A stretch of DNA of 64,000 bases from Candidatus Omnitrophica bacterium UBA6215 (GTDB lineage Bacteria; Omnitrophota; Gorgyraeia; Pluralincolimonadales; Pluralincolimonadaceae). The notes beneath the pieces were generated by a model, which was not told the DNA's origin, did no database searches, and saw nothing but the letters and a program-made list of their open reading frames with translations. Position 1 is the stretch's first letter. Each line of letters begins with the position of its first letter. A program made the translations under genes and the position numbers. This document shows, piece by piece, positions 7,616-46,216 of this stretch. The stretch is from assembly GCA_002421665.1 (NCBI GenBank), contig DISH01000004.1:152025-216024 (forward strand). The letters run 5' to 3'.

Positions 7616-7657
7616 AAATCCCTCTTTTTTACGTCTATACGTAAAGAGGAGGGATTT
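7616..7657 (+). promoter_or_regulatory. imperfect hairpin (AAATCCCTCTTTTTTACG / CGTAAAGAGGAGGGATTT) containing the RAYT RBS
   Basis: Inverted repeat read directly from the sequence; the AGGAGG lies in the 3' arm immediately upstream of ATG 7661. Confidence 0.5.
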
Positions 7658-7660
7658 TTT

Positions 7661-8251
7661 ATGCCCAGGATAAAACGCGATATAGTAGACGGAGGTATCT
7701 ATCATATTCTAAACAGGGGTCATAATAAAGATAAAATATTTGCCGCCCCGGAAGATTACAATACGTTTAAGAAGATAATCGAAAGATATAAGGAAAGATT
7801 CTTCTTCGATCTTTATCATTATTGTATTATGCCTAATCATTTTCATCTCTTAATAAAAATAGCAAATGCTGAAGACATGTCCCGTTTGATGAAAGGGGTC
7901 TGCCAGAGCTACGCGAATTATTATAAAATGAAGTATGAACACATAGGCTATCTGTTCCAAAACAGGTATAAGAGTATTTTAATCGATGACGATTCGTACC
8001 TGCTTGAGTGTGCGAGGTATATTGAGAGAAACCCTGTGAGGGCTGAAATCGTTGAGATAATTTCAGATTACCGGTGGTCGAGTTACAATTATTATGCCAG
8101 CGGGTTTTGCGACAGCCTGATCACTGCTGATCCGTTATTTGGGACATTAGCTGATTCTACGACCACAAGAAGAAGCTCTTATGTTGAGTATGTATCAAAG
8201 CCCAGGCCTTACGAGGCGATTGTTGATGAGAAATTATCTTCTTTTAAATAG
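7661..8251 (+). CDS. REP-associated tyrosine transposase (RAYT; IS200/IS605-type Y1 HuH transposase)
   Basis: 196 aa; GIYHILNRGHN start, HuH motif PNHFHLLIK, C-terminal Tyr-rich region (YRWSSYNYY); flanked by inverted REP copies. Confidence 0.85.
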   Translation: MPRIKRDIVDGGIYHILNRGHNKDKIFAAPEDYNTFKKIIERYKERFFFDLYHYCIMPNHFHLLIKIANAEDMSRLMKGVCQSYANYYKMKYEHIGYLFQNRYKSILIDDDSYLLECARYIERNPVRAEIVEIISDYRWSSYNYYASGFCDSLITADPLFGTLADSTTTRRSSYVEYVSKPRPYEAIVDEKLSSFK

Positions 8252-8254
8252 TAG

Positions 8255-8294
8255 AGTGTCCCTTTTTGACACGTCCCAAAGTGACACGTCCCCT
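8255..8294 (-). repeat. REP-like 40 bp element, right copy in inverted orientation
   Basis: GAGTGTCCCTTTTTGACACGTCCCAAAGTGACACGTCCCC is the reverse complement of 7555-7594 with one mismatch; it abuts the lptG stop codon. Confidence 0.85.
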
Positions 8295-31760: not shown

Positions 31761-32581
31761 CGGAATTATTGGGACAGGTCAGGGAAGCCGTCCAGTACGG
31801 GTTCGTCCAGCGCGCGGTGATCGCGGGTTGCTTTATGGCCCTCGGGTGTTCTTTCCTGGGGGTATTTCTTGTCCTGCGCAGGTTCTCGCTTATAGGCGAC
31901 GGTCTGGCCCACGTAAGTTTTGCGACCGTGGCTATAGGTCTGCTCTTGCACGCGCAGCCGATGGTCGTTTCCATACCGTTGGTGGCGCTTGCGTCATTGG
32001 CGATACTGGAGCTCAACGAGAAAGCGAAGGTATACGGCGACGCTGCCATAGGGCTCGTGTCATCGTTCGGTATCGCCCTTGGCGTGATCATCGCTTCCAC
32101 GGCCGGGGGGTTCAATGTCGACCTTTTCAGCTACCTTTTTGGAAATATCCTTTCGGTGAGTTCCTTCGAGGTACGCTTGACCGCGGCGATCTCCGTGATC
32201 GTGGTCCTTGTTACGGTATTGTTCTACCATGACCTGTTCTCCATAACTTTCGATGAGGATTACGCTCGGGTGACCGGCATCAAGGTCAGGGCTGTCAATA
32301 AGCTGTTGATCGTGCTGACCTCGCTTGTGATCGTTCTGGGGATAAAGATAGTCGGGACCATGCTTGTCTCGAGCCTTATCATCCTGCCGGCCATATCGGC
32401 GTTGCAGGTAGTGCGCAGCTTCAGGGCGACGATAGCGCTTGCAGGGATATTTGCCGTCCTATCTGTGTTGATCGGGATCTTTGTTTCGTATGTGCTAAAT
32501 TATCCTTCCGGGGCTACTATTGTAATGGTGAATTTCGTGTTTTTTATCGGGTCCTTTCTTTATGGCAAGATCAAAGGTTAA
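31757..32581 (+). CDS. znuB: zinc ABC transporter permease ZnuB
   Basis: 274 aa, eight-TM ABC-3 family permease. Confidence 0.88.
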   Translation: MTELLGQVREAVQYGFVQRAVIAGCFMALGCSFLGVFLVLRRFSLIGDGLAHVSFATVAIGLLLHAQPMVVSIPLVALASLAILELNEKAKVYGDAAIGLVSSFGIALGVIIASTAGGFNVDLFSYLFGNILSVSSFEVRLTAAISVIVVLVTVLFYHDLFSITFDEDYARVTGIKVRAVNKLLIVLTSLVIVLGIKIVGTMLVSSLIILPAISALQVVRSFRATIALAGIFAVLSVLIGIFVSYVLNYPSGATIVMVNFVFFIGSFLYGKIKG

Positions 32582-33752
32582 GGTTTTCGATCTGCTGCTT
32601 ATCCTTTTACTGGGCCTTCTGGTACGCCTGATCCCCCTATTTAACGCCATAGATTGGACGGATCTTTACGGGCGGCAGGCGATGCCCATACTCGACCACC
32701 TTAATATTTACAGCTCAACAAAAAGGGTTTTTCCGTATTCGCCTGTTTCTATGTTCCTGCCGGCCGGATGCGCGATATTATCCACCGCGCTGGAGATTCC
32801 GTTCTATATGATCATGAGGTTGCCGGGCATTATCGCGGACATATGCATCGGATTGTCGTTATATTTAACACTGGCCGGTGCCGGCAAGGAGAGGGCGGCT
32901 CTTTTCGCGGGATTACTCTACGTCCTGAACCCGGTATCGATATTGATATCCTCCTTCCACGGTAATGTCATGCCTATTGCGGTATTGTTCTCGTTCCTGG
33001 CATATACGGTATTGTTGAAAGGAGAGGAAGAGAATTACAGGTTGTCCGCGCTGCTTTTGGGGCTGGCTATCGGCTTCCGGGGCTACCCGGCGCTCCTCCT
33101 GCCGCTGTTCCTTATTAAGTTGAGACTTCCCGTAAGCAAGAAGGTAAAATATGTCCTCTATTCAACCATTCCTACGGCGTTATCATTCGTGCCGTTCCTG
33201 CTTTTGGACTACAGGTCGGTTTTTAGAGAAGTATTTTCATATACGGGTTTCCCGGACTACGGGCTGGGCGCTTTGTTAAGGGCGTTCTATTCACTGCAAA
33301 ATTTTGACATTTTCGTCAATTTTCCCGGAGGATTACTGCCCAGGCTTTTGATCTATACAAAAGCGTTATTTATCGTTATCTATATATTGATATTGGTTTT
33401 TGCGCGAAGGAAGAGGCTGGTATCATTAGTGCTTGCGGTTTTCCTGGCGTTCTATTGCGTATATTCCGGCATCTCATCACAATACCTAATTTGGTTGCTG
33501 CCGTTCGCTTTCCTGGCGGGGGACAGGATGTTGAAATACTACATAATAATCGCCGCGTGGGCGATGGTCAATTTCTATTATTTATATCATCCCTACATAA
33601 TTTTCGGTAAAGTATCAATGACGAATATGCCGCTCGTTGGTTTATTGAAAGGGCAGATAATTTCGCTGGGCCTGCTTTGGCTGGTGTGCGCGGTATGGCT
33701 GGTCCTTATCCTGGCCGAAAAAGGCCGGGTGGCCGGGCGGGATCTTTTATGA
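32562..33752 (+). CDS. GT87/DUF2029-like membrane glycosyltransferase
   Basis: 396 aa polytopic protein; the conserved early periplasmic loop of the DUF2029 pattern. Confidence 0.45.
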   Translation: MARSKVKVFDLLLILLLGLLVRLIPLFNAIDWTDLYGRQAMPILDHLNIYSSTKRVFPYSPVSMFLPAGCAILSTALEIPFYMIMRLPGIIADICIGLSLYLTLAGAGKERAALFAGLLYVLNPVSILISSFHGNVMPIAVLFSFLAYTVLLKGEEENYRLSALLLGLAIGFRGYPALLLPLFLIKLRLPVSKKVKYVLYSTIPTALSFVPFLLLDYRSVFREVFSYTGFPDYGLGALLRAFYSLQNFDIFVNFPGGLLPRLLIYTKALFIVIYILILVFARRKRLVSLVLAVFLAFYCVYSGISSQYLIWLLPFAFLAGDRMLKYYIIIAAWAMVNFYYLYHPYIIFGKVSMTNMPLVGLLKGQIISLGLLWLVCAVWLVLILAEKGRVAGRDLL

Positions 33753-34111
33753 GGAGGCGGGCGGATGTTCATCAGGTATATTAGGTCATTACGGTTATCG
33801 GAGAAAGCGATCATGAGTTTCTTTCTTATCCTTTATTTCGTTGAGATAGCGTATATCTTGACGATGGCTAAATGAATGTATTGTGATAGAATAGTTGCCG
33901 ATGGGAGAGAAGAGAGTATTAGGGTTTAGGGACATTACGCTTTCCGTCTTCTACTCGATATTCGGCCTTGAAGCGATATCGGCTTCGGCGGCTATCGGGA
34001 ATTCGGGAATAAATGGGCCGCCAGAGGCATATGGTTTTATCGGATATCCCTTAGTTATCGGGGAGGTAATTGTCAGGAGAGTCCGCGCGCAAAATTAAAA
34101 AGGAGATTGAC

Positions 34112-34411
34112 ATGCCGGAATTCGGGACAGCGTTATCGGGATTGGCAAAGGACAGGAAATTGACCAAGGCAGAACTGATAAGGGCCATACGTTTCATGGT
34201 CGCGGCGGAATACGAGGCCATCCAGCTGTACATGCAGCTTGCCGAATCCACCGACGATAAACTGGCACAGGAAGTCCTCAAGGATATCGCGGATGAGGAG
34301 AGGGTGCATGCCGGGGAGTTCCTGAGGTTGTTAAAGGAACTGGCTCCCGATGAGCAGAAATTCTACGATGAGGGAGCGGGAGAAGTGGAAGAAGAAATAA
34401 GGAAAAAATAA
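34112..34411 (+). CDS. small ferritin-like diiron protein (EncFtn-like fold)
   Basis: AAEYEAIQLYMQLAE...DEERVHAGEFLRLL matches the E..Y / EExxH half-ferritin pattern; ATG 34112 with AAGGAGA RBS; no encapsulin shell gene nearby. Confidence 0.6.
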   Translation: MPEFGTALSGLAKDRKLTKAELIRAIRFMVAAEYEAIQLYMQLAESTDDKLAQEVLKDIADEERVHAGEFLRLLKELAPDEQKFYDEGAGEVEEEIRKK

Positions 34412-34433
34412 AAGGTAATCGGGATTATTTATA

Positions 34434-35708
34434 GTGTGGACTAAATTTATTCGAGGTTTGCTATCGGAAAAAACAGACCGATATGTTTTTAATAGATGTT
34501 CCCGGGATGACAAGGATTATTCAAATTGCCGGGCAATAGACCTTTATGTTCATATACCTTTTTGTAAAGGTTCATGCCGGTATTGCCCCTATATAACCCA
34601 ACCATTCGATCTGAATTCATCGAAGCTTTACCGGGATGCTTTAGTTTCGGAACTGGGGCATTATGCGGACCTGCTAAAGGATAAGCCCGTCGGTTCCTTG
34701 TACATCGGCGGAGGCACCCCGACGTTAGATCTAAGTTTGGTCGGCGATTTGCTAAAGCACTTGAGACAAATAGTCACACCAAGCGGGCCGATTGCTATTG
34801 AAACGACCCCCAGCGATATATCCTGTTCCAAGATCGATGAATTGAAAAAGTTGGGCATCGATTACATAAGCCTGGGCGTCCAAAGTTTCAATCCCGGATA
34901 TCTGGCGTTGTTAGGGCGGAATTATGAAGCGGAAGACGCAGGAAAAGCGCTTAGCGAATTGATGGAGTCGGGCCTAAGCCTGGTCAACGCCGATATGATC
35001 TTCGCTTTTCCCGGTCAAACGCTGCGTGAATTCATGGAAGACCTGGGTAAGCTTATGCAATGGTCGCCTCACCAGGTGACATGTTACCCGCTCTTTACTT
35101 TCCCGTATTCTTCCGTTGGGCGGTTCATGAGGCTCAAGAGGCTAAAAATGCCCGATGTTTTTGTACGCAGGAAAATGTATTATGAAATGACCGGTTATTT
35201 TCAAAAGTGCGGTTATAAGCAAACATCCGTTTGGTCATTCACAAAGAACGAAAATAGGCACAATTATTCATCGGTGACCCGTGACCACTATCTGGGATTG
35301 GGGGTAGGAGCCGGTAGTTATACGGGGAAAGGGTTTTATTTCAATACATTCTCGACAAAAGAATATATGGACAAAGCGGCATACCGGCGTCCGACGGCGA
35401 TCAAGATGGATATCACCGAAAGGATGGAAAAGCTTTTCTGGCTTTACTGGCGTTTTTACGAAACGGAGATAAATGCGGTGCGTTACCATAGCCGTTTCAA
35501 CAACGGTATTGACGAGGATTTCGGCAGGATGCTGTGGACGGTCGAGAAGATGGGCATGCTTAGGTTGGACGGGGCTCGATCCAGGATATTGAACGAGCGG
35601 GGCGCTTTCTGGATACACTTATTGCAAAATTATTTCGCGCTCAATTACGTGAATAGGGTTTGGACCGCGGGATTAGCCGACCCCTGGCCCGAAAGAATAA
35701 GGTTATAA
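34434..35708 (+). CDS. HemN/HemW-like radical SAM protein (coproporphyrinogen-III oxidase family)
   Basis: CKGSCRYC radical-SAM CxxxCxxC motif, GGGTPT glycine-rich motif, HemN C-terminal domain; GTG start. Confidence 0.75.
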   Translation: MWTKFIRGLLSEKTDRYVFNRCSRDDKDYSNCRAIDLYVHIPFCKGSCRYCPYITQPFDLNSSKLYRDALVSELGHYADLLKDKPVGSLYIGGGTPTLDLSLVGDLLKHLRQIVTPSGPIAIETTPSDISCSKIDELKKLGIDYISLGVQSFNPGYLALLGRNYEAEDAGKALSELMESGLSLVNADMIFAFPGQTLREFMEDLGKLMQWSPHQVTCYPLFTFPYSSVGRFMRLKRLKMPDVFVRRKMYYEMTGYFQKCGYKQTSVWSFTKNENRHNYSSVTRDHYLGLGVGAGSYTGKGFYFNTFSTKEYMDKAAYRRPTAIKMDITERMEKLFWLYWRFYETEINAVRYHSRFNNGIDEDFGRMLWTVEKMGMLRLDGARSRILNERGAFWIHLLQNYFALNYVNRVWTAGLADPWPERIRL

Positions 35709-36604
35709 TGTTGAACAAACTTGCTTATTATGCGAAGTGGTACTATCTGTGCCGCATAAGGAACCGGAAAATACCTCTTAACAGTTCTCTTATTCTGACC
35801 GATCAATGTAATTTAAAATGTAAACATTGCACCGTATCCGGGCTGGGATACCCGGCGAGAAGCTTCCGGGAGGTTACTGGAGATGTCCGAAAATTATATG
35901 ACCTCGGGTCCAGGGTCCTGGTCATTACAGGCGGGGAGCCATACGTTTGGGCCGATAAGGAATATACGGTAGAAGACATCGTCCGATTTGCAAAAACGGT
36001 TGGATTCTTCCGCGTCGTCATCTGCACGAACGGGACTTATGACCTGCGGTCATCGGCGGATTATCTGTGGGTCAGCCTCGACGGTTTCAGCTTACAGCAT
36101 ACGAACTTGAGGGGGGATGTGTATGAACGGGTGGTGCGGAACATAGAACAGAGCCGGCACGGAAGTATATATATAAATTTCACCATCAGCCGTGAAAATC
36201 ATGATATATTCGAAGAAGCCGCCGAAGAGATATTGAAAATAAGGAATATACGCGGTATCTTATTTCATATTTTTACCCCTTATAAAGGTTCGGACCCGGA
36301 CTTGAAGCTCACTGCCGAAGAGAAGGACCGGGTTTTGGGCCGTTTGTTAAAAATAAAAAGAAAGCATCCTGTTAGGATATTCAATACGTTTGACGGATTA
36401 AGAGCGATGCGGTCTAAGGATTGGGACAGGCCCATCTGGGCAAGCATTGTCAGCAACCGGGGCCAGATCGGTCCGTGCTGCTGCCGAGAGGGCATATATG
36501 ACAAAGAAATATGTGAAGAATGCGGGTGCACTCCGGCAGTCGAAACATATGTTCTGCAGGAGGGGAAGGTCCTTGCCGGCATGGAAAATTTGAGGTTCAT
36601 TTAA
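35708..36604 (+). CDS. radical SAM protein with Cys-rich (SPASM-like) C-terminus
   Basis: CNLKCKHC motif; C-terminal CCCREG...CEECGC cluster; 1-nt TAATG overlap with the upstream radical-SAM gene. Confidence 0.7.
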   Translation: MLNKLAYYAKWYYLCRIRNRKIPLNSSLILTDQCNLKCKHCTVSGLGYPARSFREVTGDVRKLYDLGSRVLVITGGEPYVWADKEYTVEDIVRFAKTVGFFRVVICTNGTYDLRSSADYLWVSLDGFSLQHTNLRGDVYERVVRNIEQSRHGSIYINFTISRENHDIFEEAAEEILKIRNIRGILFHIFTPYKGSDPDLKLTAEEKDRVLGRLLKIKRKHPVRIFNTFDGLRAMRSKDWDRPIWASIVSNRGQIGPCCCREGIYDKEICEECGCTPAVETYVLQEGKVLAGMENLRFI

Positions 36605-37044
36605 TAATTAGGAAGGTAAGTATAAACTATTTTTGGAAGAGGTATAGCATATCATGAAGCGGGATGTCAAATTGATTTACATACGCACATTCGGCTGACC
36701 GATGGAAGCAGTATTATACGACTATTCTGACGTATCTGAGCAATATCTGGTAAGCGGAACTCGTTGAACTATTGAAGGTTAAGGAAGGCAACAGGGATTA
36801 ACAAGGATAAAACAGGATTTGGCAAAAGAAGGCGAGAAAAAAGTCTGAGTTTACAAAGTAAACTTAGCTAACGCATCAGAAATAAAATTCGATAGGTTAG
36901 AAAAGTTTATTAAGAGTAGAAATACTCCTGGGGTTTAATTACTCGAGAGAATGTAGGACATAATTTGGGGTGGATAAGTTCGTATCAGCAATGCATAAAC
37001 TAAATAGAGTCAGTATAGGTATATGGGAATGAGAGGGAGTAGAA

Positions 37045-39135
37045 ATGTATTTAAAAAGCCTAAAAATAATTAATTTTAGAAAATTTGGAGAATTGAACAA
37101 TGTTGTGGAATTTGTAGGCTCAAAAGGTGCCCAACCAAAAACTGAGGGAATTAACATAGCTTTATCTACAACTTTAATTGTGGGGAAAAACAATTCTGGT
37201 AAAACAACAGTAACAGAAGCGCTAAAGAGACTAATTCACGACAGAAAATTTAAAGCAAATGACTTTAATTTCATGTATTTAAACACGCTGCTTGAGGAAT
37301 ACAAAAAAGGCAAATTTGAACGTTTTCCAAAACTCGAGTTTGAAATCACTGTAAGGATTGATTTTAGCAGCGATTCCGACTTGGTTACAAATATTGCTCC
37401 ATTCATGAGTATAGAAGGCGTGGCGTCAGCAGGCAAGAAAAGCGATTTTCAAGTTCTCATGAAATATGAAATAAAAGAAGAGACAAGTTTTGAGGACGAA
37501 GTCCTGTCTATTATTGGAAAGTATAAAGATGAAACATTATTGTTTCGGAAATTTTTGGAACTCATTACCAATACTGAGTTCGAATTTAATTACTATAATT
37601 CAGAAGATGTGTTGATAGAAGATAATAAATTCAAGATTAGTGATTTGTTGGAAATCAAAGTAATTAATGCTAACAAAGATATTCATGGGAACTGTTTGTC
37701 TAATATTTTTAATAGGATAATTAAGCTGCTTTGCACGAGCGGGAACAAACCGGTTGTTCCTGATGGTATAGCTTCCGAGATAGATAAAATTAATAAGACG
37801 ATAACAAAAAAAGTGTCAGCGCCGCACGCTACGACTGTCAACAGAGCATTGAGTAAAATTGAGTCAAGTGACCACATGGAAGTTAACTTAAGGCCAGATT
37901 TAACTTTTGATAATATTCTTTCAACAATTATCCGATATGAATATAAAGAAGGGAAATTTCATATCCCCGAAGGACAGTTTGGTCTTGGGTACTCGAACCT
38001 CATGATGATTATTGGAGAACTGATTGAGTACATTGAGAAGTATCCTAAGCAGGAGCACCACAGTAAGATTAATTTGATTTGCATAGAAGAGCCGGAAGCT
38101 TTCATGCACTGTCAGATGCAGGAATTATTCATAAAGCATATTAATGATGCTGTTGATTTTCTCTTGAAGGATAGAGAGAAAGAAATTAACAGTCAGCTAA
38201 TAGTGACGACGCATTCCCCTCATATCTTAAATAGCAAGATTCATAGTGGAAATACTTTTGACAATATAAGTTATAGTACCATTGTCGATGATTTCGCAAA
38301 TGTTGTTAATCTGAATGATGTCAACGTAATGGGGGATAAGTCTGCTGATGAGGGAAAAGGTGATGTGGCGGCAGAAAAGAAAACCGCTGATGACCTTAAG
38401 TTCCTAAAGAAACACATCAAATACAAAGTGTCGGAGCTGTTCTTTTCTGATGCGGTAATCTTTGTTGAAGGAGTGACAGAAGAAACACTGCTATCTTATT
38501 ATATTGACAAAGACAAAACATTAAATCGTTATTACATTTCAGTCTTTAACATTAATGGCTCACACGGTCTTGTTTATCACCCACTGATAAAGCTTCTTAA
38601 AGTTCCCAATCTAATCATAACCGACTTTGATATAAGAAGAGAAGAGAAAGAAAAAGATGACTGCCTTCAAATCAAAGACCTAAAAGATAGGGAGACTACA
38701 AATAAAACCATTGCCAAATATAATCCTGACAAAGAAAAAATCGGAAATCTTAAAGGATATTTCGAAGATGAAAACATATATGTAATATTTCAGCGTGAAG
38801 CCATCGAAGGATATTATGCGACTAGCTTTGAGGAAGCATTTATTCTCACTAACTATAATAACGACATACTGAATAACGCTTTATCTGTTGTAAAACCTGG
38901 AGTCTATAAAAAAATCAGTGGGGAGCCAATAGATAGAAATAGGCTCAAGGACGCATCCTATAAGTTGCAAAGCAGCCTTTCTAAAAGCAAAAGCGACTTT
39001 TCAAATGAGCTGCTATACGAAATCGTAGTTAGCGAAGATGCAGGAGCCATACCGAAACCGCCGAAATACATAACAGACGGGTTGGTGTGGTTGACTCGTT
39101 CCGTTAAGAAGCAAGCAAAAGGGGGGAATAAATAA
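37045..39135 (+). CDS. gajA: OLD-family ATP-dependent endonuclease (ABC ATPase + Toprim), GajA-like
   Basis: 696 aa; KSLKIINFRKF start, Walker A GKNNSGKTT, Walker B/D-loop LICIEEPEAFMH, H-loop QLIVTTHSPHIL, Toprim motifs VIFVEGVTEETLL and LIITDFDIRRE; GAGGGAG RBS. Confidence 0.85.
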   Translation: MYLKSLKIINFRKFGELNNVVEFVGSKGAQPKTEGINIALSTTLIVGKNNSGKTTVTEALKRLIHDRKFKANDFNFMYLNTLLEEYKKGKFERFPKLEFEITVRIDFSSDSDLVTNIAPFMSIEGVASAGKKSDFQVLMKYEIKEETSFEDEVLSIIGKYKDETLLFRKFLELITNTEFEFNYYNSEDVLIEDNKFKISDLLEIKVINANKDIHGNCLSNIFNRIIKLLCTSGNKPVVPDGIASEIDKINKTITKKVSAPHATTVNRALSKIESSDHMEVNLRPDLTFDNILSTIIRYEYKEGKFHIPEGQFGLGYSNLMMIIGELIEYIEKYPKQEHHSKINLICIEEPEAFMHCQMQELFIKHINDAVDFLLKDREKEINSQLIVTTHSPHILNSKIHSGNTFDNISYSTIVDDFANVVNLNDVNVMGDKSADEGKGDVAAEKKTADDLKFLKKHIKYKVSELFFSDAVIFVEGVTEETLLSYYIDKDKTLNRYYISVFNINGSHGLVYHPLIKLLKVPNLIITDFDIRREEKEKDDCLQIKDLKDRETTNKTIAKYNPDKEKIGNLKGYFEDENIYVIFQREAIEGYYATSFEEAFILTNYNNDILNNALSVVKPGVYKKISGEPIDRNRLKDASYKLQSSLSKSKSDFSNELLYEIVVSEDAGAIPKPPKYITDGLVWLTRSVKKQAKGGNK

Positions 39136-41507
39136 TGAGCCTATCAAAAATATCCCCTACTTCCGAGAAGGAAGAGCTCGCTGTTCAAGACCTCGTTAAT
39201 TCATATATTGACAGGAACGAAAGCCTTGTTTTTAGCGCAGGAGCAGGAGCAGGAAAGACTTATGCCTTAACTGAGAGCTTAAAACATATCGTAAAAGTGC
39301 ACGGCGACAGGCTGGTTAGGCATAACCAAAAAATAATATGTATTACATATACGAATGTCGCAACAAATGAAATCAAAGAGCGTCTTGGCAACTCAGACCT
39401 TGTCAAGGTTTCAACTATTCATGAAAGAGTTTGGGATTTAATTAATGATTATCAAAAGGAGCTTATTAAGATACACGTTGAAAAAATTCAGGAAGATCTT
39501 GTTAAGTTGCAGTTTGACTTGTATGACAGTAACGAGGAAAAAGAAGAAAGCTTGTATAAGGCTTACCGGGGGCTTTCAGATAGCGAAAAAGCTGAATTTA
39601 AAAGCATGATGATTGCTAAAAAGAAAGAGTTTTACAGATTTTACGATAAGCCTGCTAAAGAATTTAAGTTTGCAATGGGAGATTTTATTGGTGGATATGC
39701 GAGCCTTTTGAGCAATGTTGCAAATTTTAAGAAAACAGTAAGTATAATTTATAAGATTGAGAATTATAAAGAGTGTCTGGGGAAAATCAATGAAGGACAT
39801 GCGAAATACGCTGAGGTTAAATATGACGACAGATATAATTTTGACGTCCTTCATCGAATGATAATAAGTCACGATACGCTTCTTGAGTATGCTCTTAAGA
39901 TGATTAAGACTTATGATTTGTTGAAGCGTGTTATATTTGATAGTTATCCGTACATTCTCATAGACGAATACCAAGACACTAATCAAAACGTAGTTGAAAT
40001 AATGAAACTTATTGAAGATCACGCAAAGAGCATTAAGCGCAAACTTTTTGTGGGTTATTTCGGTGATTCAGCACAAAACATCTACGAAGACGGAGTAGGG
40101 AGTGGCCTTGTCAATATTCATCCAGAATTAAAGGGCGTGAATAAACAATTCAATCGCAGGTCTCATTCAGAAATAATCGATGTCATAAATAAAATCAGGA
40201 ATGATGAAATAAAACAGAAGTCCATATTTGAGGATTGTACTGGCGGAAGTATTGAGTTTTACGCCGGAACGAATGAAGTTAAACATCTATTCATCGAAGA
40301 ATACAGAAAAAAGTGGAATATCAACTCAGAAAATAAACTTCATTGTTTGGTTTTACTGAATAAATTTGTCGCAGAATTCAATGGCTTTCCCGATATATAC
40401 AGATGTTTTGCAGATACTTCTTATTACAAAATAAACTATGACCGCCTAAACAATGAAATACTCAGCAATGATCTATCCAAGCTGGGAGACATCCCAAACC
40501 TATTCTATAGAGTTCTCAAATTCATTGACAACTTAAATAACCTTAATACTTCTGTTGCCAACATAGTCGATAAGGAAACCTATTCCAGAATGACGTTTCT
40601 CAAAATAAAAGAGCTTACCACTATATTCAAGAACCTCAAAGGTGTTACTTTAGGAGAGTATATAAAAGACATATTTGAAAAATACAGCAATTCTGACAAT
40701 AACTATTATAAAAAAGTCATTCAAAAACTGATTGGCATTGAATATTACTCATATCACGATTTTACAAATTACCTCCTTGACGAATTGTTTTTCAATATAG
40801 GAAACGGAAGGTGGGAAGAATTCAAGCTTACGGTTGTTGAATTGACACAGAATGATTTATCTGCAAAGACAGACGAAAAGGAATTTAAGCCATTTAAGCT
40901 AAAATTGGACAATTTTCTTTCTGGAGAATATTTTTCTTATCTCGACATTCAGGAAGTAAACGCCTTTAAACAAAGGCTCGTTGAGTTCATAAAAGAACAA
41001 AAAATAACAAGCATAAAAACCAAAGATATGGACTCTTTCATGGAAAAATTGGACCAAACATTTCAAAATGAAATAATAGCCCTAATAGATAAAGATGAGG
41101 TTGAAGTCGCTAAAACAAAACTCGATGAACTCCTAAACATAAAATTAGACCAGTGGAAAATCTGGTACGATTTCATAAACAATAAACAAAAATCCGAGAT
41201 TGAGTACCATACCTATCATGGAACAAAAGGCGCCGAATACGATAACGTCATAATCATTATGGAAAACGATTTTGGGCGAATGAATAAAGATAAATTCTCA
41301 TCTTTTTTCAAGCATTACAAAAATCCTGATTCTTTACTTGAAGAAGACAGAGTTAAGTTTAATAATACAAAAAACTTGTTATACGTATCTTGTTCCCGCG
41401 CAATTAAAAACTTAAGGATTTTATATCTTGACGATATATCTGAATTTCGAGAAGGAATAGAACATATTTTTGGAACAGTAAACCCTTATAAACCAAACTT
41501 AATCTAA
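39135..41507 (+). CDS. gajB: UvrD-like superfamily 1 helicase, GajB-like
   Basis: 790 aa; Walker A AGAGAGKTY, motif II YILIDEYQDTNQ, motif III FGDSAQNIYE, motif VI-like YHTYHGTKGAEYDNVIII; start overlaps the gajA-like stop (TAATG). Confidence 0.85.
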   Translation: MSLSKISPTSEKEELAVQDLVNSYIDRNESLVFSAGAGAGKTYALTESLKHIVKVHGDRLVRHNQKIICITYTNVATNEIKERLGNSDLVKVSTIHERVWDLINDYQKELIKIHVEKIQEDLVKLQFDLYDSNEEKEESLYKAYRGLSDSEKAEFKSMMIAKKKEFYRFYDKPAKEFKFAMGDFIGGYASLLSNVANFKKTVSIIYKIENYKECLGKINEGHAKYAEVKYDDRYNFDVLHRMIISHDTLLEYALKMIKTYDLLKRVIFDSYPYILIDEYQDTNQNVVEIMKLIEDHAKSIKRKLFVGYFGDSAQNIYEDGVGSGLVNIHPELKGVNKQFNRRSHSEIIDVINKIRNDEIKQKSIFEDCTGGSIEFYAGTNEVKHLFIEEYRKKWNINSENKLHCLVLLNKFVAEFNGFPDIYRCFADTSYYKINYDRLNNEILSNDLSKLGDIPNLFYRVLKFIDNLNNLNTSVANIVDKETYSRMTFLKIKELTTIFKNLKGVTLGEYIKDIFEKYSNSDNNYYKKVIQKLIGIEYYSYHDFTNYLLDELFFNIGNGRWEEFKLTVVELTQNDLSAKTDEKEFKPFKLKLDNFLSGEYFSYLDIQEVNAFKQRLVEFIKEQKITSIKTKDMDSFMEKLDQTFQNEIIALIDKDEVEVAKTKLDELLNIKLDQWKIWYDFINNKQKSEIEYHTYHGTKGAEYDNVIIIMENDFGRMNKDKFSSFFKHYKNPDSLLEEDRVKFNNTKNLLYVSCSRAIKNLRILYLDDISEFREGIEHIFGTVNPYKPNLI

Positions 41508-41540
41508 AGGAGATGCCCATGGGCGGTTTTAAAAAAGGAT

Positions 41541-41894
41541 TTGGACGGCAGCGAAGAGCAATGGCGATATGAAAGATTTATCGAGATAATATTTGAAGCA
41601 GATAAAAAGTGTTTAGAACAGCATATAGAGGAACGAAGACTCAAAGAACAGGCGATAGATAACCAAATCAGAAAGGTTGATGCAAAACATTTTCAGAAAT
41701 GCGCGCAGTGGTCAGGCAAAAAATACAACCTAACGCAAACAGCGAGAATTTTAAGGGTGCATCGGCAGACGTTATATCATTGGATTAAGAAGGGTTGGTG
41801 CAAACCGAAACGTGATTACAGGAATTATCCTGTTTTTACAGTTTTAGACATTGAAAACCTGATGAAGTGGAGAAACACGATAAAATCGGGATGA
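41541..41894 (+). CDS. small HTH_17 (AlpA/excisionase/MerR-type) DNA-binding protein; TTG start
   Basis: C-terminal helix-turn-helix NLTQTARILRVHRQTLYHWIKKGW; AT-rich codon usage like the island; only a TTG start is available in frame. Confidence 0.5.
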   Translation: MDGSEEQWRYERFIEIIFEADKKCLEQHIEERRLKEQAIDNQIRKVDAKHFQKCAQWSGKKYNLTQTARILRVHRQTLYHWIKKGWCKPKRDYRNYPVFTVLDIENLMKWRNTIKSG

Positions 41895-41981
41895 AAAAGC
41901 ATCAAAAACGCCTTTTAGTCGTATACATTCATCTACTTAGACAGTTTTAGACACTTGGGCGTAATATCATAAGGCACTAGT

Positions 41982-44051
41982 ATGAAAGAAGATAAGAAAA
42001 AAATTTACCTTCGCAGTTTTGGATGCCAGATGAACTTCCGTGATTCCGAAGAGATCGCCGGGCTCATGATGGAAAAGGGCTGGGAGCTTACGGATTCCCC
42101 GGAAGAAGCCGATGCCGCTATATTCAATACGTGCGCCGTGCGCAAGCACGCGGAGGACCGCGCGATCAGCAATGTCGGGGCGCTTGCACCTTTCAAAAAG
42201 AAACGTCCCCGGCTGGTGATAGGCGTTGTCGGCTGCATGGCCAAGGCTCATGGCAGGAATATCATCGACAGGGTACCGATAGTGGATTTTATCGCCGGGC
42301 CGGCAAATATCTATGACATCCCGGCGGCGGTTGACGCTATCATGGCGCGGAGGAAAGACCCGGTCATCTCGACGGACAAGGTCTCGCGTCCGTATATCGG
42401 AAATATCGCCTACCATAATCCCGGCATAAGCGCGCTGGTTACTATCATGGAAGGGTGTAATAACTTCTGCTCGTATTGCATCGTGCCTTATGTCAGGGGC
42501 CGTGAAGTCGGAAGGCCCGCGGATGACATAATAGACGAGATAAAGGCGCTCGCCGATAAAGGGTACAAAGAAGTGACCTTGCTGGGGCAAAATGTTAATT
42601 CATACGCGGATAAGAGCGGAGTGTCCCTAAATGACACGTCCCAAAGTGGCACGTCCCCTTTTACGCGGTTGCTGGAGAGGATCAATGGGATAGAGGGGAT
42701 AGAGCGAGTCCGCTTCCTTACCAGCCACCCGAAGGACGCAAGCGAGGCGCTCTTCAAGGCGATGAGGGACCTGCCGAAGGTATGCGAACATCTCCATTTG
42801 CCCTTGCAGTCGGGTTCTGATAAAATATTAAAGTCGATGAACAGGGGCTATACAGCCTCGGAATACCTGAAGAAAGTCGAACTGCTGCGCAAGTATGTGG
42901 CGGATTGCGCTCTGACAACGGATATAATAGTCGGGTACCCGGGTGAATCGGATGAGGATTTTCGCATGACCGAAAAGGTGATGCGGGAGGCCGGGTTCAA
43001 TTCGGCATTTATATTCAAATACTCTCCGCGCCCTCCGGCTAAGGCGAGCGGGTTCGATGATGATGTGCCGAAGAAGGTAAAAGAGGAGCGCAACCAGGCG
43101 TTGCTCAGGTTAAGGGATAAGATGTCGAGTGCACTCGACAGGGAATTCATAGGCGGTGAGACCGAGGTCCTTGTGGAACAGATATGCAGAAAGGAAAAGC
43201 ATAAAGTGTCCGGACGCAACAGGCAGAACATCAAGGTTGTCTTTGAAGGCGGCAGAGCGCTTATAGGAGCCATAAAAAAGGTGAAGGTATCTTCCGTTGT
43301 CGGCCATACGCTAGCGGGAACGGCGCTGCTGGCGCTATTGGCGGCCGGGTTGCCTTTGATGCCCGCCGCGGCGGAGACCATAGACGAATATTTCGTGAGC
43401 GGCGATTACGAGAATACCGTCAGGGAAGGCGTAAAGCTTGTGCAATCATACAAGGAGAAGGATAAGCTTTATTACATGATCGGCACAAGTCTCAATAAAC
43501 TGGGCCGCTATGACCTCGCCAGGAAGAATTTCAATATACTTATGGATACGGCCCCAAAGAGCAGGTTTGCGCCGTTGGCCCAATTGGGTATAGCCGACAG
43601 TTACTACCTGAGCTCGGACTACAAGAATGCCAGGGCCTGCTATGAAAAATATCTTTCAAAGTACCCGAAATCGGAGGGGGGAGCGGTCGCTTATTTCAGG
43701 CTGGCAAAATGCGCCCAAAAAGAAGGTAACTGGCAGTCGGCGAGGAATTATTACCAGAAAGTAAAGAGCGAATACCCGATGAGTTTTGAAGCTCAGACGG
43801 CCTCGGATGCGCTCAGGGACGAGATACTTTTCTTTACGGTACAGGTCGGCTCATTCAATAAGAAGGCAAATGCCCTCAGGTTATGCGATGAACTTGTCAA
43901 GAAGGGTTATGACGCCTCTATTGTGAAATCGAGCGGTGACGCGGAAGAATCTTATAAGGTAAGGGTCGGCAGGCTCGGCGACAGGGATTCGGCGGAAGCG
44001 CTGGCCAAGAAATTGAGGGCCGAAGGCCTTCCAACGAAAGTCCTTCCGTAA
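41982..44051 (+). CDS. miaB: tRNA-i6A37 methylthiotransferase MiaB with unusual C-terminal TM-TPR-SPOR extension (or in-frame fused/nested second gene from ~43281)
   Basis: MTTase N-domain, radical-SAM CNNFCSYC motif and TRAM domain occupy residues ~1-440; the frame then continues through a hydrophobic helix (LAGTALLALLAAGLPLMPAAA), TPR repeats and a SPOR domain (FTVQVGSF...YKVRVGRLGD) to 44051. An in-frame REP insert lies at 42619-42658. Confidence 0.8.
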   Translation: MKEDKKKIYLRSFGCQMNFRDSEEIAGLMMEKGWELTDSPEEADAAIFNTCAVRKHAEDRAISNVGALAPFKKKRPRLVIGVVGCMAKAHGRNIIDRVPIVDFIAGPANIYDIPAAVDAIMARRKDPVISTDKVSRPYIGNIAYHNPGISALVTIMEGCNNFCSYCIVPYVRGREVGRPADDIIDEIKALADKGYKEVTLLGQNVNSYADKSGVSLNDTSQSGTSPFTRLLERINGIEGIERVRFLTSHPKDASEALFKAMRDLPKVCEHLHLPLQSGSDKILKSMNRGYTASEYLKKVELLRKYVADCALTTDIIVGYPGESDEDFRMTEKVMREAGFNSAFIFKYSPRPPAKASGFDDDVPKKVKEERNQALLRLRDKMSSALDREFIGGETEVLVEQICRKEKHKVSGRNRQNIKVVFEGGRALIGAIKKVKVSSVVGHTLAGTALLALLAAGLPLMPAAAETIDEYFVSGDYENTVREGVKLVQSYKEKDKLYYMIGTSLNKLGRYDLARKNFNILMDTAPKSRFAPLAQLGIADSYYLSSDYKNARACYEKYLSKYPKSEGGAVAYFRLAKCAQKEGNWQSARNYYQKVKSEYPMSFEAQTASDALRDEILFFTVQVGSFNKKANALRLCDELVKKGYDASIVKSSGDAEESYKVRVGRLGDRDSAEALAKKLRAEGLPTKVLP
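42619..42658 (-). repeat. REP-like 40 bp element embedded in-frame in miaB
   Basis: GAGTGTCCCTAAATGACACGTCCCAAAGTGGCACGTCCCC, same family as 8255-8294; translated as VSLNDTSQSGTSP inside the MiaB loop between NSY and FTRLL. Confidence 0.8.
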
Positions 44052-44972: not shown

Positions 44973-46216
44973 TAACGGTCGAGTTCTTCGATAAAGCGTA
45001 TAAAGATTCCTGGAAACTCGATGACATAAATTTTGAACTTCGCGAATTGGTTAAGTCCGCGGGCCTCCAGGTCGTAGACCTGGTAGAATGTTTCAAAGAC
45101 AAACCGGCGCCGGGGCACTATATAGGTAAAGGCAAAGCAGGCGAGATAAAACTTATATGCAGGGACAAGGGCGCTGATGTTGTTATTTTTGGCGATGACC
45201 TTTCGCCGACACAACAGCAGAACCTCGAAGAAGAGATAGGCCTGAAGGTAATAGACAGGACGCAGTTGATCCTAGACATATTTGCCGGCAGGGCGCATTC
45301 CGCCGAGGGCAAGGTACAGGTCGAGCTTGCCCAACTCCAATACCTTCTGCCCAGGTTGAAAGGAAAAGGCGTCATGCTTTCAAGATTGGGCGGAGGGATC
45401 GGCACCAGGGGCCCCGGCGAGCAGAAGCTGGAGATGGACCGCCGCAAGATAAGGGAGAAGATCTCGAGGCTCAAGGAAAGCCTTTCTAAGATACATGAAC
45501 GCAGGGAGGGGCTTCGCAGGAAACGCCGCGAGGGAGAGGTTGCTATAATATCCCTCGTCGGTTATACAAACGCTGGAAAGTCAACCCTGCTCAATGCTCT
45601 CACCGATTCCGAAGTACTTTCACAGGACAGGCTCTTTTCCACACTGGACCCTACCGCGCGCCGGCTGGTGCTCCCGAACAACCAGAAGGCGGTATTCGTG
45701 GATACAGTCGGCTTCCTCCACAGATTGCCGCACCATCTTATCGAGGCCTTTAAGGCGACCCTGGAAGAGGCCGCGGAAGCGGATATGCTCATACATGTCC
45801 TTGACGCTTCAAGCCCGATAATATACGAAATGAACCAGGCCGTGCATGAGGTCCTGGAGGAGCTCGATATCCGGGACAAGACGGTCATAACGGTCCTCAA
45901 TAAGATCGACAGGGTTGAGGATATGGCCGTAATTAACCGGCTCCTCAGGGAGTTCGACAATTCGATCGCCATATCGGCCCTGAACAGACAGAACCTCGAA
46001 GAGTTAGTACAGCGCATCTCCATGATACTCTTTGCCTCGCTGGTATACGTAAAAGCCGCCATACCCCAGTCCGAAGGCAAACTCCTGAGCCAGATATATA
46101 AGGAGTCCAGTATAATAAGCCGCGACTTCAAGGGGGAGCATGTCTACATTGAAGCTGACATGCCTATACGTTTAAAAAATTTACTTGACAAAAGAGGTTT
46201 TTGTGATAAACTTTGA
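44954..46216 (+). CDS. hflX: GTPase HflX
   Basis: HflX N-domain and G-domain motifs [18 protein letters not shown]. Confidence 0.9.

What the first reader, a model, noticed from the sequence alone, without database searches (positions are those of the whole stretch)
36605..41980. AT-rich genomic island inserted between a radical-SAM gene and miaB
From ~36605 to ~41980 the sequence switches from the host's GC-rich composition and codon usage to strongly A/T-rich DNA with AAA/AAT/ATA codons. The flanks are core genes (radical SAM upstream, miaB-miaA-hflX downstream). No integrase, tRNA or clear att duplication is visible, so how the island arrived is unclear. It may be an old, decayed insertion or one delivered by a mechanism not encoded locally.
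Basis: seen in the sequence. Interest (0 to 1): 0.8.

Follow-up and report, generated by a model that had tools for sequence, protein, structure and literature searches.

The report
Gabija defence cassette lodged in miaB's start
The AT-rich block is a horizontally acquired Gabija anti-phage system sitting, without its own recombinase, in a recombination site inside the first codons of the tRNA-modification gene miaB; it is a known kind of island at a target site I found no report of.

Summary
The low-GC block is real: GC is 0.349 against 0.515±0.010 elsewhere (z≈-17), and GC3 is 0.35-0.36 against 0.58-0.71. It holds three + strand genes. gajA is an OLD-type ABC-ATPase/Toprim nuclease, gajB is a UvrD-like helicase, and the third encodes a small excisionase-like HTH protein. 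The first two form a divergent but intact Gabija (class 2 OLD) system.

Window 36654-36704 is a decayed copy of the miaB start (33/51 nt; MKRDVKLIYIRTFG*PM against MKEDKKKIYLRSFGCQM). It ends exactly where a ~99%-identical sister strain diverges. The island therefore spans 36698-42023, between two TG dinucleotides in the Cys codon of MiaB's F-G-C-Q-M-N motif, and it supplies miaB's present start codon.

In the sister strain the same site holds a different element that ends in a large serine recombinase (LSR) reading into miaB. Homologous recombinases, complete or truncated, sit at this spot in other Omnitrophota. Recombinase-less cargo with the same split-start signature occurs in Omnitrophota and Aminicenantes, and one case has an empty-site relative.

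Best reading: an LSR-type integrative cassette that has lost, or never had, its recombinase. Gabija is known; the miaB site appears undescribed. Interest is moderate.

The parts
36654..36704 (+). Pseudo-copy of the miaB 5' end: the former miaB start, 49 nt after the radical-SAM stop codon, now carrying an in-frame TGA. It forms the attL-like junction (B arm, TG at 36696-36697, then the first bases of the element arm ACCGATG).
   Evidence: It is the best secondary match to miaB nt 1-51 in the whole window on both strands: 33/51 nt against a next best of 28, and BLOSUM62 48 against a next best of 24. Homology to sister-strain contigs L097, L100 and L101 (98.98% over 2651 nt) stops at 36704. It aligns with the attL-like junctions of L097, L107 and L065.
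36698..42023 (+). The island proper (5326 bp), lying between the two TG dinucleotides.
   Evidence: GC is 0.349 against 0.515, z = -17. It is absent from the ~99%-identical strain (L097/L102), which has other DNA at this position. It is also absent from related species L002, L103 and L005.
36698..37044 (+). Non-coding left end of the island: the element-side arm of attL and the region upstream of gajA. It presumably contains the gajA promoter, which was not demonstrated.
   Evidence: No ORF of 40 aa or more on the + strand. GC is 0.365. The promoter scan found no more sites than shuffled sequence.
37045..39135 (+). gajA: class 2 OLD-family nuclease (ABC ATPase plus Toprim), 696 aa.
   Evidence: PADLOC GajA model PDLC00065, E = 5.5e-200, full length. 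Pfam AAA_15 plus OLD-like_TOPRIM. Walker A K53/T54, Walker B E348/E349, and Toprim E475, D527 and D529 are invariant among 20 homologues and align to the class 2 OLD Toprim structure 6nk8. The AlphaFold2 model's top Foldseek hits are B. cereus GajA: 8u7i_A at E = 1.9e-20, then 8x5i and 8sm3.
39135..41507 (+). gajB: UvrD/PcrA/Rep-like superfamily 1 helicase, 790 aa. Its start overlaps the gajA stop codon by 1 nt.
   Evidence: PADLOC GajB model PDLC00128, E = 2.2e-262, full length. Pfam UvrD-helicase and AAA_19. The PDB sequence search hits Rep, UvrD and PcrA. Helicase motifs are readable in the translation: GAGAGKT, DEYQD, YVSCSRA. The ~700 aa plus ~790 aa pair is conserved in the nearest relatives.
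41541..41894 (+). Small HTH gene (117 aa, TTG start) of the excisionase/MerR-like HTH_17 type. It belongs to the integrative-element backbone, not to Gabija.
   Evidence: Pfam MerR_1 at 1e-5 and HTH_17 at 1.6e-5. PHROG 66 'excisionase and transcriptional regulator' at 1.2e-5. GC3 is 0.415, which is island-like. Homologues lie next to miaB or next to the recombinase in L112, L023, L003 and L137. It is not found beside the closest GajAB cassettes.
41895..41981 (+). Island-borne region upstream of miaB. It contains a sigma-70-like match (41938-41967) and one copy of a 13-nt exact repeat, ACAGTTTTAGACA (41941-41953; the other copy is at 41838-41850).
   Evidence: The promoter-like matches are no more frequent than in shuffled sequence, so the promoter role is inferred only.
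41982..42025 (+). Replacement 5' end of miaB supplied by the island (start codon plus 14 codons, GC 0.20 in the first 30 nt). It ends at the attR-like TG (42024-42025).
   Evidence: Homology to the sister strain (L102) begins at 42012, with 4 mismatches before 42024 and near-identity after. It aligns with the attR-like junctions of L102, L107, L137, L023 and L037.
41982..44051 (+). miaB (chimeric: island-derived first codons, host-derived remainder), fused to C-terminal TPR and SPOR domains.
   Evidence: Pfam UPF0004, Radical_SAM, TPR and SPOR. The fusion is conserved in Omnitrophota relatives.

Best explanation
The AT-rich block (window 36698-42023) is a horizontally acquired integrative cassette. 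Its cargo is a complete Gabija anti-phage system. GajA is an ATP-regulated OLD-family Toprim nuclease and GajB is a UvrD-like helicase. By analogy with B. cereus Gabija, they should assemble into a GajAB complex that cuts invading phage DNA.

The cassette sits in a site-specific recombination site inside the 5' end of miaB. The crossover maps to the TG of the Cys codon in MiaB's conserved F-G-C-Q-M-N motif. Integration left the original miaB start behind as a dead 51-nt stub (36654-36704). The cassette carries its own AT-rich start codon and first 14 codons, and presumably a promoter, so miaB stays intact.

The enzyme responsible was most likely a large serine recombinase (LSR) of the family found at exactly this spot in a sister strain and in other Omnitrophota. 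That gene is now absent from the cassette. Either it was deleted after integration or it acted in trans. Only the small excisionase-like HTH backbone gene remains next to miaB.

Shown: the composition, the Gabija identity and intactness, both breakpoints, the split-start repeat, recombinases at the same site elsewhere, and recombinase decay elsewhere. Inferred: that an LSR moved this particular cassette, loss versus action in trans, the role of the HTH protein, the promoter supply, and defence activity.
For: - Composition: z = -17, with the lowest GC3 and CAI in the window.
- Gabija identity: full-length PADLOC GajA and GajB matches at E = 5.5e-200 and 2.2e-262, Pfam domains, invariant catalytic residues, and a fold search that ranks B. 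cereus GajA first.
- Left breakpoint: three independent contigs (L097, L100, L101) are ~99% identical to 34054-36704 and then diverge.
- Right breakpoint: L102 is 98.9% identical from 42012 onward.
- Pseudo-miaB start: it is the unique best secondary match in the window and ends at the left breakpoint.
- Recombinase in the sister strain: L102 carries an LSR (Recombinase plus Zn_ribbon_recom domains) that reads into miaB and gives it a different N-terminus.
- Recombinases elsewhere: homologous LSRs abut miaB in L137 (complete, 555 aa, with Resolvase, Recombinase and Zn_ribbon domains), L037, L023 (truncated) and L003 (54-aa remnant).
- Same signature without a recombinase: L107, L065/L174/L175 and L051.
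- Empty site: L106 is the unoccupied version of L107, and the pair bounds the crossover to the TG dinucleotide.
- Core symmetry: attL-like junctions share a TCGG-NNNN-CCGA dyad centred on TG.
- HTH linkage: its homologues lie beside miaB or beside the recombinase in L112, L023, L003 and L137.
- Plausible donors: low-GC Omnitrophota lineages (GC 0.34-0.37) carry these elements.
Against: - No recombinase gene or remnant was detected in the window.
- No empty-site allele (radical-SAM gene followed directly by an intact miaB starting MKRD...) was found for this species. Its 90% MiaB cluster holds only the Gabija-linked and the recombinase-linked alleles.
- That L097 and L102 are the two ends of one element is inferred. 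They come from the same sample and the same ~99% lineage, but the contigs do not overlap.
- The island's miaB-proximal arm lacks the recombinase C-terminal coding motif seen in LSR-bearing elements.
- Strain differences cluster in the first ~665 nt of miaB (33 of 63 mismatches) and in the stub (6 of 27). This points to homologous exchange at the locus.
- This GajA and GajB are not detectably similar by sequence to the solved B. cereus proteins, so the mechanism is extrapolated across ~15% identity.
- The promoter scan is uninformative.
Confidence: 0.75

Rival explanations
1. Allelic replacement. The miaB-start site was occupied long ago. The present Gabija+HTH content arrived by homologous recombination in the flanking host DNA, after uptake of DNA from a related strain or species carrying a different cassette. 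On this reading the 5.3 kb cassette itself never integrated site-specifically.
For: Mismatches between the window and the sister strain cluster next to the junctions. Divergence is ~5% over miaB nt 30-695 against ~0.3% beyond, and 6 of 27 left-flank mismatches fall in the 51-nt stub. Both strains share the stub at the same place. No recombinase is present in the window.
Against: This still requires an earlier site-specific event to create the stub. The element-side bases next to TG differ between the two strains, as expected for two distinct attP arms. It does not explain why recombinase-less cargo with identical junction architecture recurs in other phyla. It is not mutually exclusive with the best explanation.
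Confidence: 0.3
2. Non-autonomous cassette. Gabija+HTH never encoded a recombinase. It is a cassette, like an SCC-type pseudo-cassette, that is integrated and excised in trans by the LSR of a sibling element at the same site, with the HTH protein acting as directionality factor or regulator.
For: Recombinase-less cargo with intact junction architecture recurs in L107, L065 and L051. The miaB-site recombinase is most similar to CcrB/CcrC cassette recombinases. Ccr enzymes mobilise tandem recombinase-less defence cassettes in staphylococci (PMC11470126). The HTH protein's best PHROG is 'excisionase and transcriptional regulator'.
Against: Truncated recombinases in L023 and L003 show that loss by decay does happen at this site. 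No second element or recombinase is present in the 64 kb window. No circular form or tandem array was observed for this island.
Confidence: 0.25
3. Local duplication. The 51-nt repeat arose from a tandem duplication of the miaB start followed by an unrelated insertion (for example by a transposon or illegitimate recombination), with no site-specific recombinase involved.
For: L066 shows a perfect duplication of the miaB start that extends well beyond the TG and brackets a 1.36 kb insert. So duplication-type events do occur at this gene.
Against: In the window, L097, L107 and L065 the upstream copy breaks at the same TG and is followed by a similar short motif (RYCGATG / ACCATTG). Recombinases sit at this exact junction in five loci. 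There is no transposase and no terminal inverted repeat.
Confidence: 0.07
4. Degraded prophage or phage satellite whose remaining genes happen to be Gabija and an excisionase-like gene.
For: A related recombinase (51% identity) occurs on a viral contig with a large terminase (L188). The HTH protein hits an excisionase PHROG.
Against: There are only three ORFs in the island and none is a phage structural or replication gene. No viral contig encodes a relative of this GajA. Sister elements at the site carry metabolic, transport or defence cargo rather than phage genes.
Confidence: 0.05
5. Native region. The low GC reflects local mutational or selective bias on ancestral genes, not horizontal transfer.
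For: None beyond the presence of the block in all ~19 contigs of this population.
Against: It is absent from a ~99%-identical strain and from all related species. The composition is 17 sd from the genome mean. The closest GajA relatives (at most 78% identity) are scattered across phyla in unrelated contexts.
Confidence: 0.02

Closest known systems
Gabija (class 2 OLD nuclease GajA plus UvrD-like helicase GajB), prototype Bacillus cereus VD045
   Same: A two-gene operon. The first gene encodes an ABC-ATPase/Toprim OLD nuclease and the second an SF1 UvrD/PcrA/Rep-like helicase. Catalytic residues are conserved. The predicted GajA fold matches B. cereus GajA best. This is the definition of class 2 OLD = GajA given in PMC10568477.
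   Different: The proteins are larger: 696 and 790 aa, against 548-626 residues in the solved GajA chains listed. Structural alignments show only ~15% identity. Sequence and profile searches of the PDB reach only Thermus and Burkholderia OLD and Rep/UvrD/PcrA, not the solved Gabija chains. It belongs to a distinct PADLOC subfamily (PDLC00065/PDLC00128). Activity is untested.
SCC / SCCmec-type cassettes (CcrAB/CcrC large serine recombinases integrating at the 3' end of rlmH), including recombinase-less tandem defence cassettes
   Same: The LSR family at the miaB site is most similar to CcrB/CcrC in NCBIfam. The target is a conserved RNA-modification gene. Cassettes with and without their own recombinase occupy the same site, and some carry anti-phage cargo (PMC11470126).
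   Different: The target is the 5' end of miaB, not the 3' end of rlmH, so the element must replace the start codon and N-terminus. The hosts are uncultivated Omnitrophota and Aminicenantes. No tandem array and no mobilisation in trans was shown here. NCBIfam scores are far below the Ccr equivalog cut-offs (253 bits against 900).
dusA-specific integrase (DAI) genomic islands and prophages
   Same: Integration within the 5' end of a tRNA-modification gene, with diverse cargo and a wide phylogenetic spread of one target (PMC4482086).
   Different: DAIs are tyrosine recombinases, whereas here the associated enzymes are large serine recombinases. The target gene is miaB. That paper lists only mnmE, the MiaB-like rimO and rluA as other tRNA-modification targets.
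Gene-interrupting LSR elements such as the fdxN element (XisF), skin/sigK and SPbeta/spsM
   Same: An LSR with a Resolvase, Recombinase and zinc-ribbon architecture targets a site inside a coding sequence. The L137 LSR hits XisF at E = 9.4e-41. The skin and SPbeta comparisons rest on my own knowledge.
   Different: Those elements disrupt the gene until they excise. The miaB elements keep the gene intact by supplying a substitute 5' end.

Membership tests
Gabija / class 2 OLD system | GajA: N-terminal ABC-type ATPase fused to a C-terminal Toprim nuclease domain | tested here: met
   Pfam AAA_15 (residues 1-394, E = 1.8e-29) and OLD-like_TOPRIM (466-529, E = 2.1e-15).
Gabija / class 2 OLD system | An adjacent, co-oriented UvrD/PcrA/Rep-like helicase gene (GajB) | tested here: met
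   ORF 39135-41507 overlaps the gajA stop codon. It matches Pfam UvrD-helicase at 1.2e-24 and Rep, UvrD and PcrA in the PDB.
Gabija / class 2 OLD system | Match to curated Gabija profile HMMs over the full length | tested here: met
   PADLOC GajA PDLC00065 at E = 5.5e-200 (residues 1-687 of 696). PADLOC GajB PDLC00128 at E = 2.2e-262 (residues 3-786 of 790).
Gabija / class 2 OLD system | Catalytic residues intact: Walker A and B, Toprim Glu and DxD; helicase motifs I, II and VI | tested here: met
   K53, T54, E348, E349, E475, D527 and D529 are invariant in 20 homologues. FVEG and TDLD align to the class 2 OLD structure 6nk8. GAGAGKT, DEYQD and YVSCSRA are readable in GajB.
Gabija / class 2 OLD system | Fold similarity to experimentally characterised GajA | tested here: met
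   AlphaFold2 model with pLDDT 73.6. Foldseek against the PDB ranks B. cereus GajA at positions 1-4: 8u7i_A at E = 1.9e-20, then 8x5i and 8sm3 (target-normalised TM 0.54-0.58).
Gabija / class 2 OLD system | Sequence-detectable homology to the solved B. cereus GajA and GajB | tested here: not met
   phmmer and a 20-sequence profile reach only 6p74 and 6nk8 (OLD) and Rep/UvrD/PcrA. This is a divergent subtype.
Gabija / class 2 OLD system | 4:4 GajAB complex, nucleotide-regulated DNA nicking, protection against phage | not testable with these tools
   This needs biochemistry and phage challenge. GajB was not modelled.
LSR integrative element (SCC-like or phage-like) | Encodes a large serine recombinase (Resolvase, Recombinase and Zn-ribbon domains) | tested here: not met
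   tblastn with the L102 recombinase finds nothing in the window at E <= 0.01. The three island ORFs are GajA, GajB and the HTH protein.
LSR integrative element (SCC-like or phage-like) | Junctions share only a short core around a central dinucleotide, with no long exact target duplication | tested here: met
   attL-like ...TTCGGC TG ACCGATG... and attR-like ...TTTGGA TG CCAGATG.... In the L106/L107 empty/occupied pair, the element-specific bases begin immediately either side of TG.
LSR integrative element (SCC-like or phage-like) | The same attachment site is occupied by recombinase-encoding elements in relatives | tested here: met
   L102 in the ~99% strain. Also L137 (complete), L037, L023 (truncated) and L003 (remnant).
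LSR integrative element (SCC-like or phage-like) | An unoccupied attB exists in a close relative | tested here: inconclusive
   Found for the L107 element (L106). Not found for the window's species, where only two occupied alleles exist in the public collection. L103 shows an uninterrupted miaB start in a related species.
LSR integrative element (SCC-like or phage-like) | Excision or circularisation (an attP-bearing circle) | not testable with these tools
   This needs reads or PCR across the predicted attP and attB junctions.
dusA-type (DAI) islands integrating at a gene's 5' end | Integration into the 5' end of a tRNA-modification gene | tested here: met
   A stub at 36654-36704, and an island-borne start at 41982 that keeps miaB intact.
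dusA-type (DAI) islands integrating at a gene's 5' end | A DAI-family tyrosine integrase adjacent to the junction | tested here: not met
   There is no integrase in the window. Sister elements carry serine, not tyrosine, recombinases.
tRNA-gene-targeting genomic island | A flanking tRNA or tmRNA gene with a 3'-end duplication | tested here: not met
   ARAGORN finds no tRNA or tmRNA gene in the 64 kb window.

The most novel reading that the evidence does not exclude
The Cys codon of MiaB's F-G-C-Q-M-N motif is a cross-phylum landing pad, seen at least in Omnitrophota and Aminicenantes, for a family of Ccr/XisF-like large serine recombinases. Their elements rebuild the miaB start. At this pad, recombinase-less cassettes such as Gabija+HTH would be exchanged or mobilised in trans, as in SCC arrays, with the HTH protein acting as a directionality factor. 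That would be a previously undescribed defence and cargo exchange platform in uncultivated bacteria.
Probability: 0.25. Interest if true: 0.6.

Novelty: new member of a known kind. Interest (0 to 1): 0.4.

Why it matters
This resolves how an apparently orphan island arrived, and shows that 'no integrase, no att' was a detection problem. The att repeat is only 65% identical and hides inside a coding sequence.

It adds miaB's 5' end to the short list of tRNA-modification genes used as integration sites. Here the enzymes are serine recombinases and the hosts are candidate phyla with no genetics.

The paired attB, attL and attR sequences and the full-length recombinases (L137, L037) give a testable LSR/att set, which is of possible use for genome engineering. 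They also offer a marker for finding cargo islands, including defence systems, in Omnitrophota and Aminicenantes MAGs, where contig breaks at this site (for example L001) probably hide such islands.

The Gabija system itself is ordinary.

Tried and rejected
- Generic repeat finding missed the flanking repeat because it is ~65% identical. The short repeats it did report (for example D9, D1) look like AT-rich chance matches.
- The tRNA scan was negative.
- An exact look-up of the 314-aa TTG-start version of the radical-SAM protein found nothing. The 298-aa ATG version worked.
- Sequence and profile searches of the PDB did not reach the solved Gabija chains, so a fold search was needed.
- The promoter and terminator scan gave no more sites than shuffled sequence, so I make no promoter claim.
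- Viral-contig scans found no relative of this GajA. They found only one short phage contig with a related recombinase.
- The HTH N-terminus resembles an ORF upstream of that phage's recombinase only weakly (E = 0.002). I treat it as a lead only.
- A search for an empty-site MiaB allele in the species' 90% cluster was negative.
- L002's radical-SAM gene is not an orthologue of the window's. So I rejected the idea that radical-SAM followed by miaB is a conserved ancestral adjacency across species.
- Literature searches for miaB as an LSR or integrase target found nothing specific.
- Native origin, a tRNA-targeting island, a transposon and a prophage were each considered and rejected (see the rival explanations).


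Full report
**Observation.** The compositional switch is real. In 500-nt windows, GC falls from 0.45-0.55 to 0.31-0.40 between about 36.5 and 42.0 kb, and this is the only such trough in the 64 kb window. For the refined interval 36698-42023, GC is 0.349. The 480 equal-length windows elsewhere have a mean of 0.515 (sd 0.0097), so z = -17. The two long ORFs inside have GC3 of 0.36 and 0.35, against 0.58-0.71 for host ORFs, and the lowest codon-adaptation values of all long ORFs. A shoulder of intermediate GC (0.45-0.48) extends from about 32 to 36.6 kb.

**Content.** The block carries three + strand ORFs.
- ORF 37045-39135 (696 aa) has Pfam AAA_15 and OLD-like_TOPRIM domains. It matches the PADLOC GajA model PDLC00065 end to end (E = 5.5e-200).
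- ORF 39135-41507 (790 aa) overlaps the first ORF's stop codon. It has a UvrD-helicase domain and matches the GajB model PDLC00128 end to end (E = 2.2e-262).
- ORF 41541-41894 (117 aa, TTG start) is a small HTH protein. It gives weak MerR_1 and HTH_17 matches, and its best PHROG is 'excisionase and transcriptional regulator' at 1.2e-5.

**How typical is this Gabija?** It is a divergent subtype. Neither phmmer nor a 20-sequence profile reaches the solved B. cereus Gabija chains. They reach only Thermus OLD (6p74), the class 2 OLD Toprim domain (6nk8), and Rep, UvrD and PcrA.

An AlphaFold2 model of GajA (pLDDT 73.6) nevertheless finds B. cereus GajA as its four best PDB matches: 8u7i_A at E = 1.9e-20, then 8x5i and 8sm3. 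These rank ahead of retron-Eco8 OLD and Thermus OLD.

The catalytic residues are invariant among 20 homologues: Walker A K53/T54, Walker B E348/E349, and Toprim E475, D527 and D529. They align with the class 2 OLD Toprim motifs. GajB retains motifs I, II and VI. The cargo is therefore intact, not decayed.

**Origin of the cassette.** The exact GajA protein occurs on about 19 contigs from several independent samples, always in this same chromosomal context. The nearest non-identical relative is only 78% identical. More than 1700 homologues are spread over Planctomycetota, Campylobacterota, Lokiarchaeota and other groups. In the nearest relatives the ~700 aa plus ~790 aa pair is conserved as a two-gene cassette. 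It sits in unrelated contexts that resemble defence islands, and the HTH gene is absent from them. So the HTH gene is not part of Gabija.

**Host and synteny.** MiaB here is fused to TPR and SPOR domains. Its closest relatives are Candidatus Omnitrophota MAGs. Downstream of miaB, gene order is collinear in all relatives. Upstream it is not.
- L103 has the compact order VIT1, amino-acid permease, methyltransferase, miaB, with the methyltransferase stop overlapping the miaB start.
- L002 has three extra genes before miaB.
- The window has Fur-ZnuABC, an unknown 396-aa ORF, a rubrerythrin-like ORF and two radical-SAM genes before the island.

L002's radical-SAM gene is not an orthologue of the window's. 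The radical-SAM flank is therefore not a conserved core neighbour.

**Breakpoints.** Contigs L097, L100 and L101 encode the identical 298-aa radical-SAM protein. They are 98.98% identical to window 34054-36704, and all three then diverge at 36704/36705 into PadR, an RND efflux system, prismane genes and others.

L102 comes from the same sample as L097. It is 98.9% identical to the window from 42012 onward. Directly upstream it carries the C-terminal 438 aa of a large serine recombinase (LSR), with Recombinase at 8e-23 and Zn_ribbon_recom at 4e-11. Its reading frame runs into miaB, and MiaB there has a different N-terminus. The contig of the 90%-identical species L001 also starts at window position 42018.

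**The overlooked repeat.** The 51 nt before the left breakpoint read ATGAAGCGGGATGTCAAATTGATTTACATACGCACATTCGGCTGACCGATG. This is a diverged copy of the first 51 nt of miaB: 33/51 nt identical, and MKRDVKLIYIRTFG*PM against MKEDKKKIYLRSFGCQM. It is the single best secondary match in the window on both strands, at nucleotide level (33 against a next best of 28) and at protein level (BLOSUM62 48 against 24). It also ends at the breakpoint that was mapped independently.

The former miaB start therefore lay 49 nt after the radical-SAM stop codon. The island separated it from the gene and brought a replacement start, whose first 30 nt have a GC of 0.20.

**Generality of the site.**
- LSRs homologous to the L102 enzyme sit directly upstream of miaB, reading across the junction, in four more loci. 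These are L137 (complete, 555 aa, with Resolvase, Recombinase and Zn-ribbon domains), L037, L023 (truncated, lacking the catalytic domain) and L003 (a 54-aa remnant).
- The recombinase is most similar to CcrB, CcrC and XisF, although it scores well below their equivalog cut-offs.
- HTH homologues lie next to miaB or next to the recombinase in L112, L023, L003 and L137.
- An upstream pseudo-copy of the locus's own MiaB N-terminus, broken at the same Cys codon, occurs in L097 (FGWPM), L107 (FG*SM), the Aminicenantes loci L065/L174/L175 (FG*PL) and, in decayed form, L051.
- The cargo at this site varies. By Pfam, L137 has an AAA_21 ATPase, Hypoth_Ymh and TaqI_C upstream of its recombinase. By my reading of the translations, L107 has a lysine-aminomutase-like and an acetyltransferase-like gene, L065 has ion-transport genes, and L051 has an antiporter and a P-type ATPase.

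**Crossover position.** L106 is the unoccupied version of L107 (87-92% identity). In that pair, element-specific bases begin immediately on either side of a TG dinucleotide. The window's junctions behave in the same way. The attL-like junctions share a short dyad, TCGG-NNNN-CCGA, centred on that TG. A short core with a central dinucleotide, rather than a long direct repeat, is what serine-recombinase att sites look like (my own knowledge).

**Mechanism.** The best-supported account is that a Gabija-carrying cassette integrated by LSR-type recombination at the TG of MiaB's F-G-C-Q-M-N Cys codon. It kept miaB functional by supplying a new start. It now lacks a recombinase, either through deletion (as partly seen in L023 and L003) or because one acted in trans. 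I put this at 0.75.

The defence mechanism is extrapolated from B. cereus Gabija. There, a GajAB complex carries out ATP-inhibited, site-specific DNA nicking (PMC10568477; PMC8136825, abstract).

**Complication.** Differences between the window and the sister strain cluster next to the junctions. Thirty-three of 63 right-flank mismatches lie in the first ~665 nt of miaB, and 6 of 27 left-flank mismatches lie in the stub. Homologous exchange of the whole hotspot between related strains is therefore a serious rival, or a complement, for how this particular content arrived (0.3).

No empty-site allele of this species exists in the public collection. No recombinase remnant is detectable in the window.

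**Comparison and novelty.** Gabija is a known and very common system. Integration into the 5' end of a tRNA-modification gene is known for dusA, through tyrosine integrases (PMC4482086). Recombinase-less defence cassettes at an LSR site are known for SCC elements at rlmH (PMC11470126).

I found no report of miaB's start as a serine-recombinase site. The island is therefore a new member of a known kind. The most novel defensible reading is a cross-phylum cassette-exchange platform at miaB (probability about 0.25).

**Verdict.** Interest is 0.4.

Noticed in passing
window 7554-8294 and 42616-42659: A REPtron-like unit. ORF 7661-8253 matches the REP-associated tyrosine transposase family (NCBIfam NF047646, E = 7e-21, just under the cut-off) and has low GC (0.37). 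It is flanked by inverted 41-44-nt repeats at 7554-7597 (- strand) and 8254-8294 (+ strand). A third copy (41/44 nt) lies in frame inside the miaB coding sequence, where it encodes SGVSLNDTSQSGTSPF. That copy is also present in the sister strain L102.
   Followed up: partly
window ~33900-34051 (compare L097 180-1541): Remnant of an amino-acid permease gene. The sister strain L097 and the related species L002 and L103 have an intact permease here. The window lacks L097 positions 455-1496, which is about 1 kb.
   Followed up: partly
window 41982-44051: MiaB is fused to C-terminal TPR repeats and a SPOR (peptidoglycan-binding) domain after a hydrophobic segment. The fusion is conserved across Omnitrophota relatives but absent from Aminicenantes MiaB.
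   Followed up: no
window 45034-45418 (hflX): A second cluster of strain differences. Nineteen of the 63 mismatches between the window and L102 fall in this ~385-nt stretch of hflX. This suggests another recombination tract.
   Followed up: no
window 32000-36650: A shoulder of intermediate GC (0.45-0.48). It contains a 396-aa ORF with no Pfam match, a rubrerythrin-like ORF and two radical-SAM genes with low CAI (0.59-0.64). The block is absent from related species, so it may be older acquired cargo at the same variable locus.
   Followed up: partly
window 41508-41571 and 41838-41953: The HTH gene has no in-frame ATG, and its conserved N-terminus extends upstream of the first ATG in its L112 homologue too. 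A strong AGGAG site precedes an ATG at 41519 in another frame, which opens only a 17-codon ORF. A 13-nt exact repeat, ACAGTTTTAGACA, occurs in the HTH 3' end and again just upstream of miaB.
   Followed up: partly
L066 281-1720: A perfect duplication of the miaB start. It extends well past the TG core and brackets a 1.36 kb insert with two small ORFs (107 and 226 aa). This architecture differs from the other loci.
   Followed up: no
L137 1434-1661 (- strand): A second recombinase C-terminal fragment (83% identical to residues 485-553 of the L137 recombinase). It is in inverted orientation next to the HTH homologue, about 7 kb upstream of the intact recombinase. It may be the remnant of an earlier element.
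   Followed up: no
L083 / L090 (JGI 3300001592): In this assembly gajB, hrcA, dnaK and other genes are split by frameshifts (13 gap openings against the window over 22 kb). These are probably assembly or sequencing errors rather than pseudogenisation.
   Followed up: no
L001 position 1 (= window 42018): The contig of the 90%-identical reference MAG ends exactly at the miaB att core. MAG assemblies may systematically break at this hotspot and lose the attached islands.
   Followed up: no
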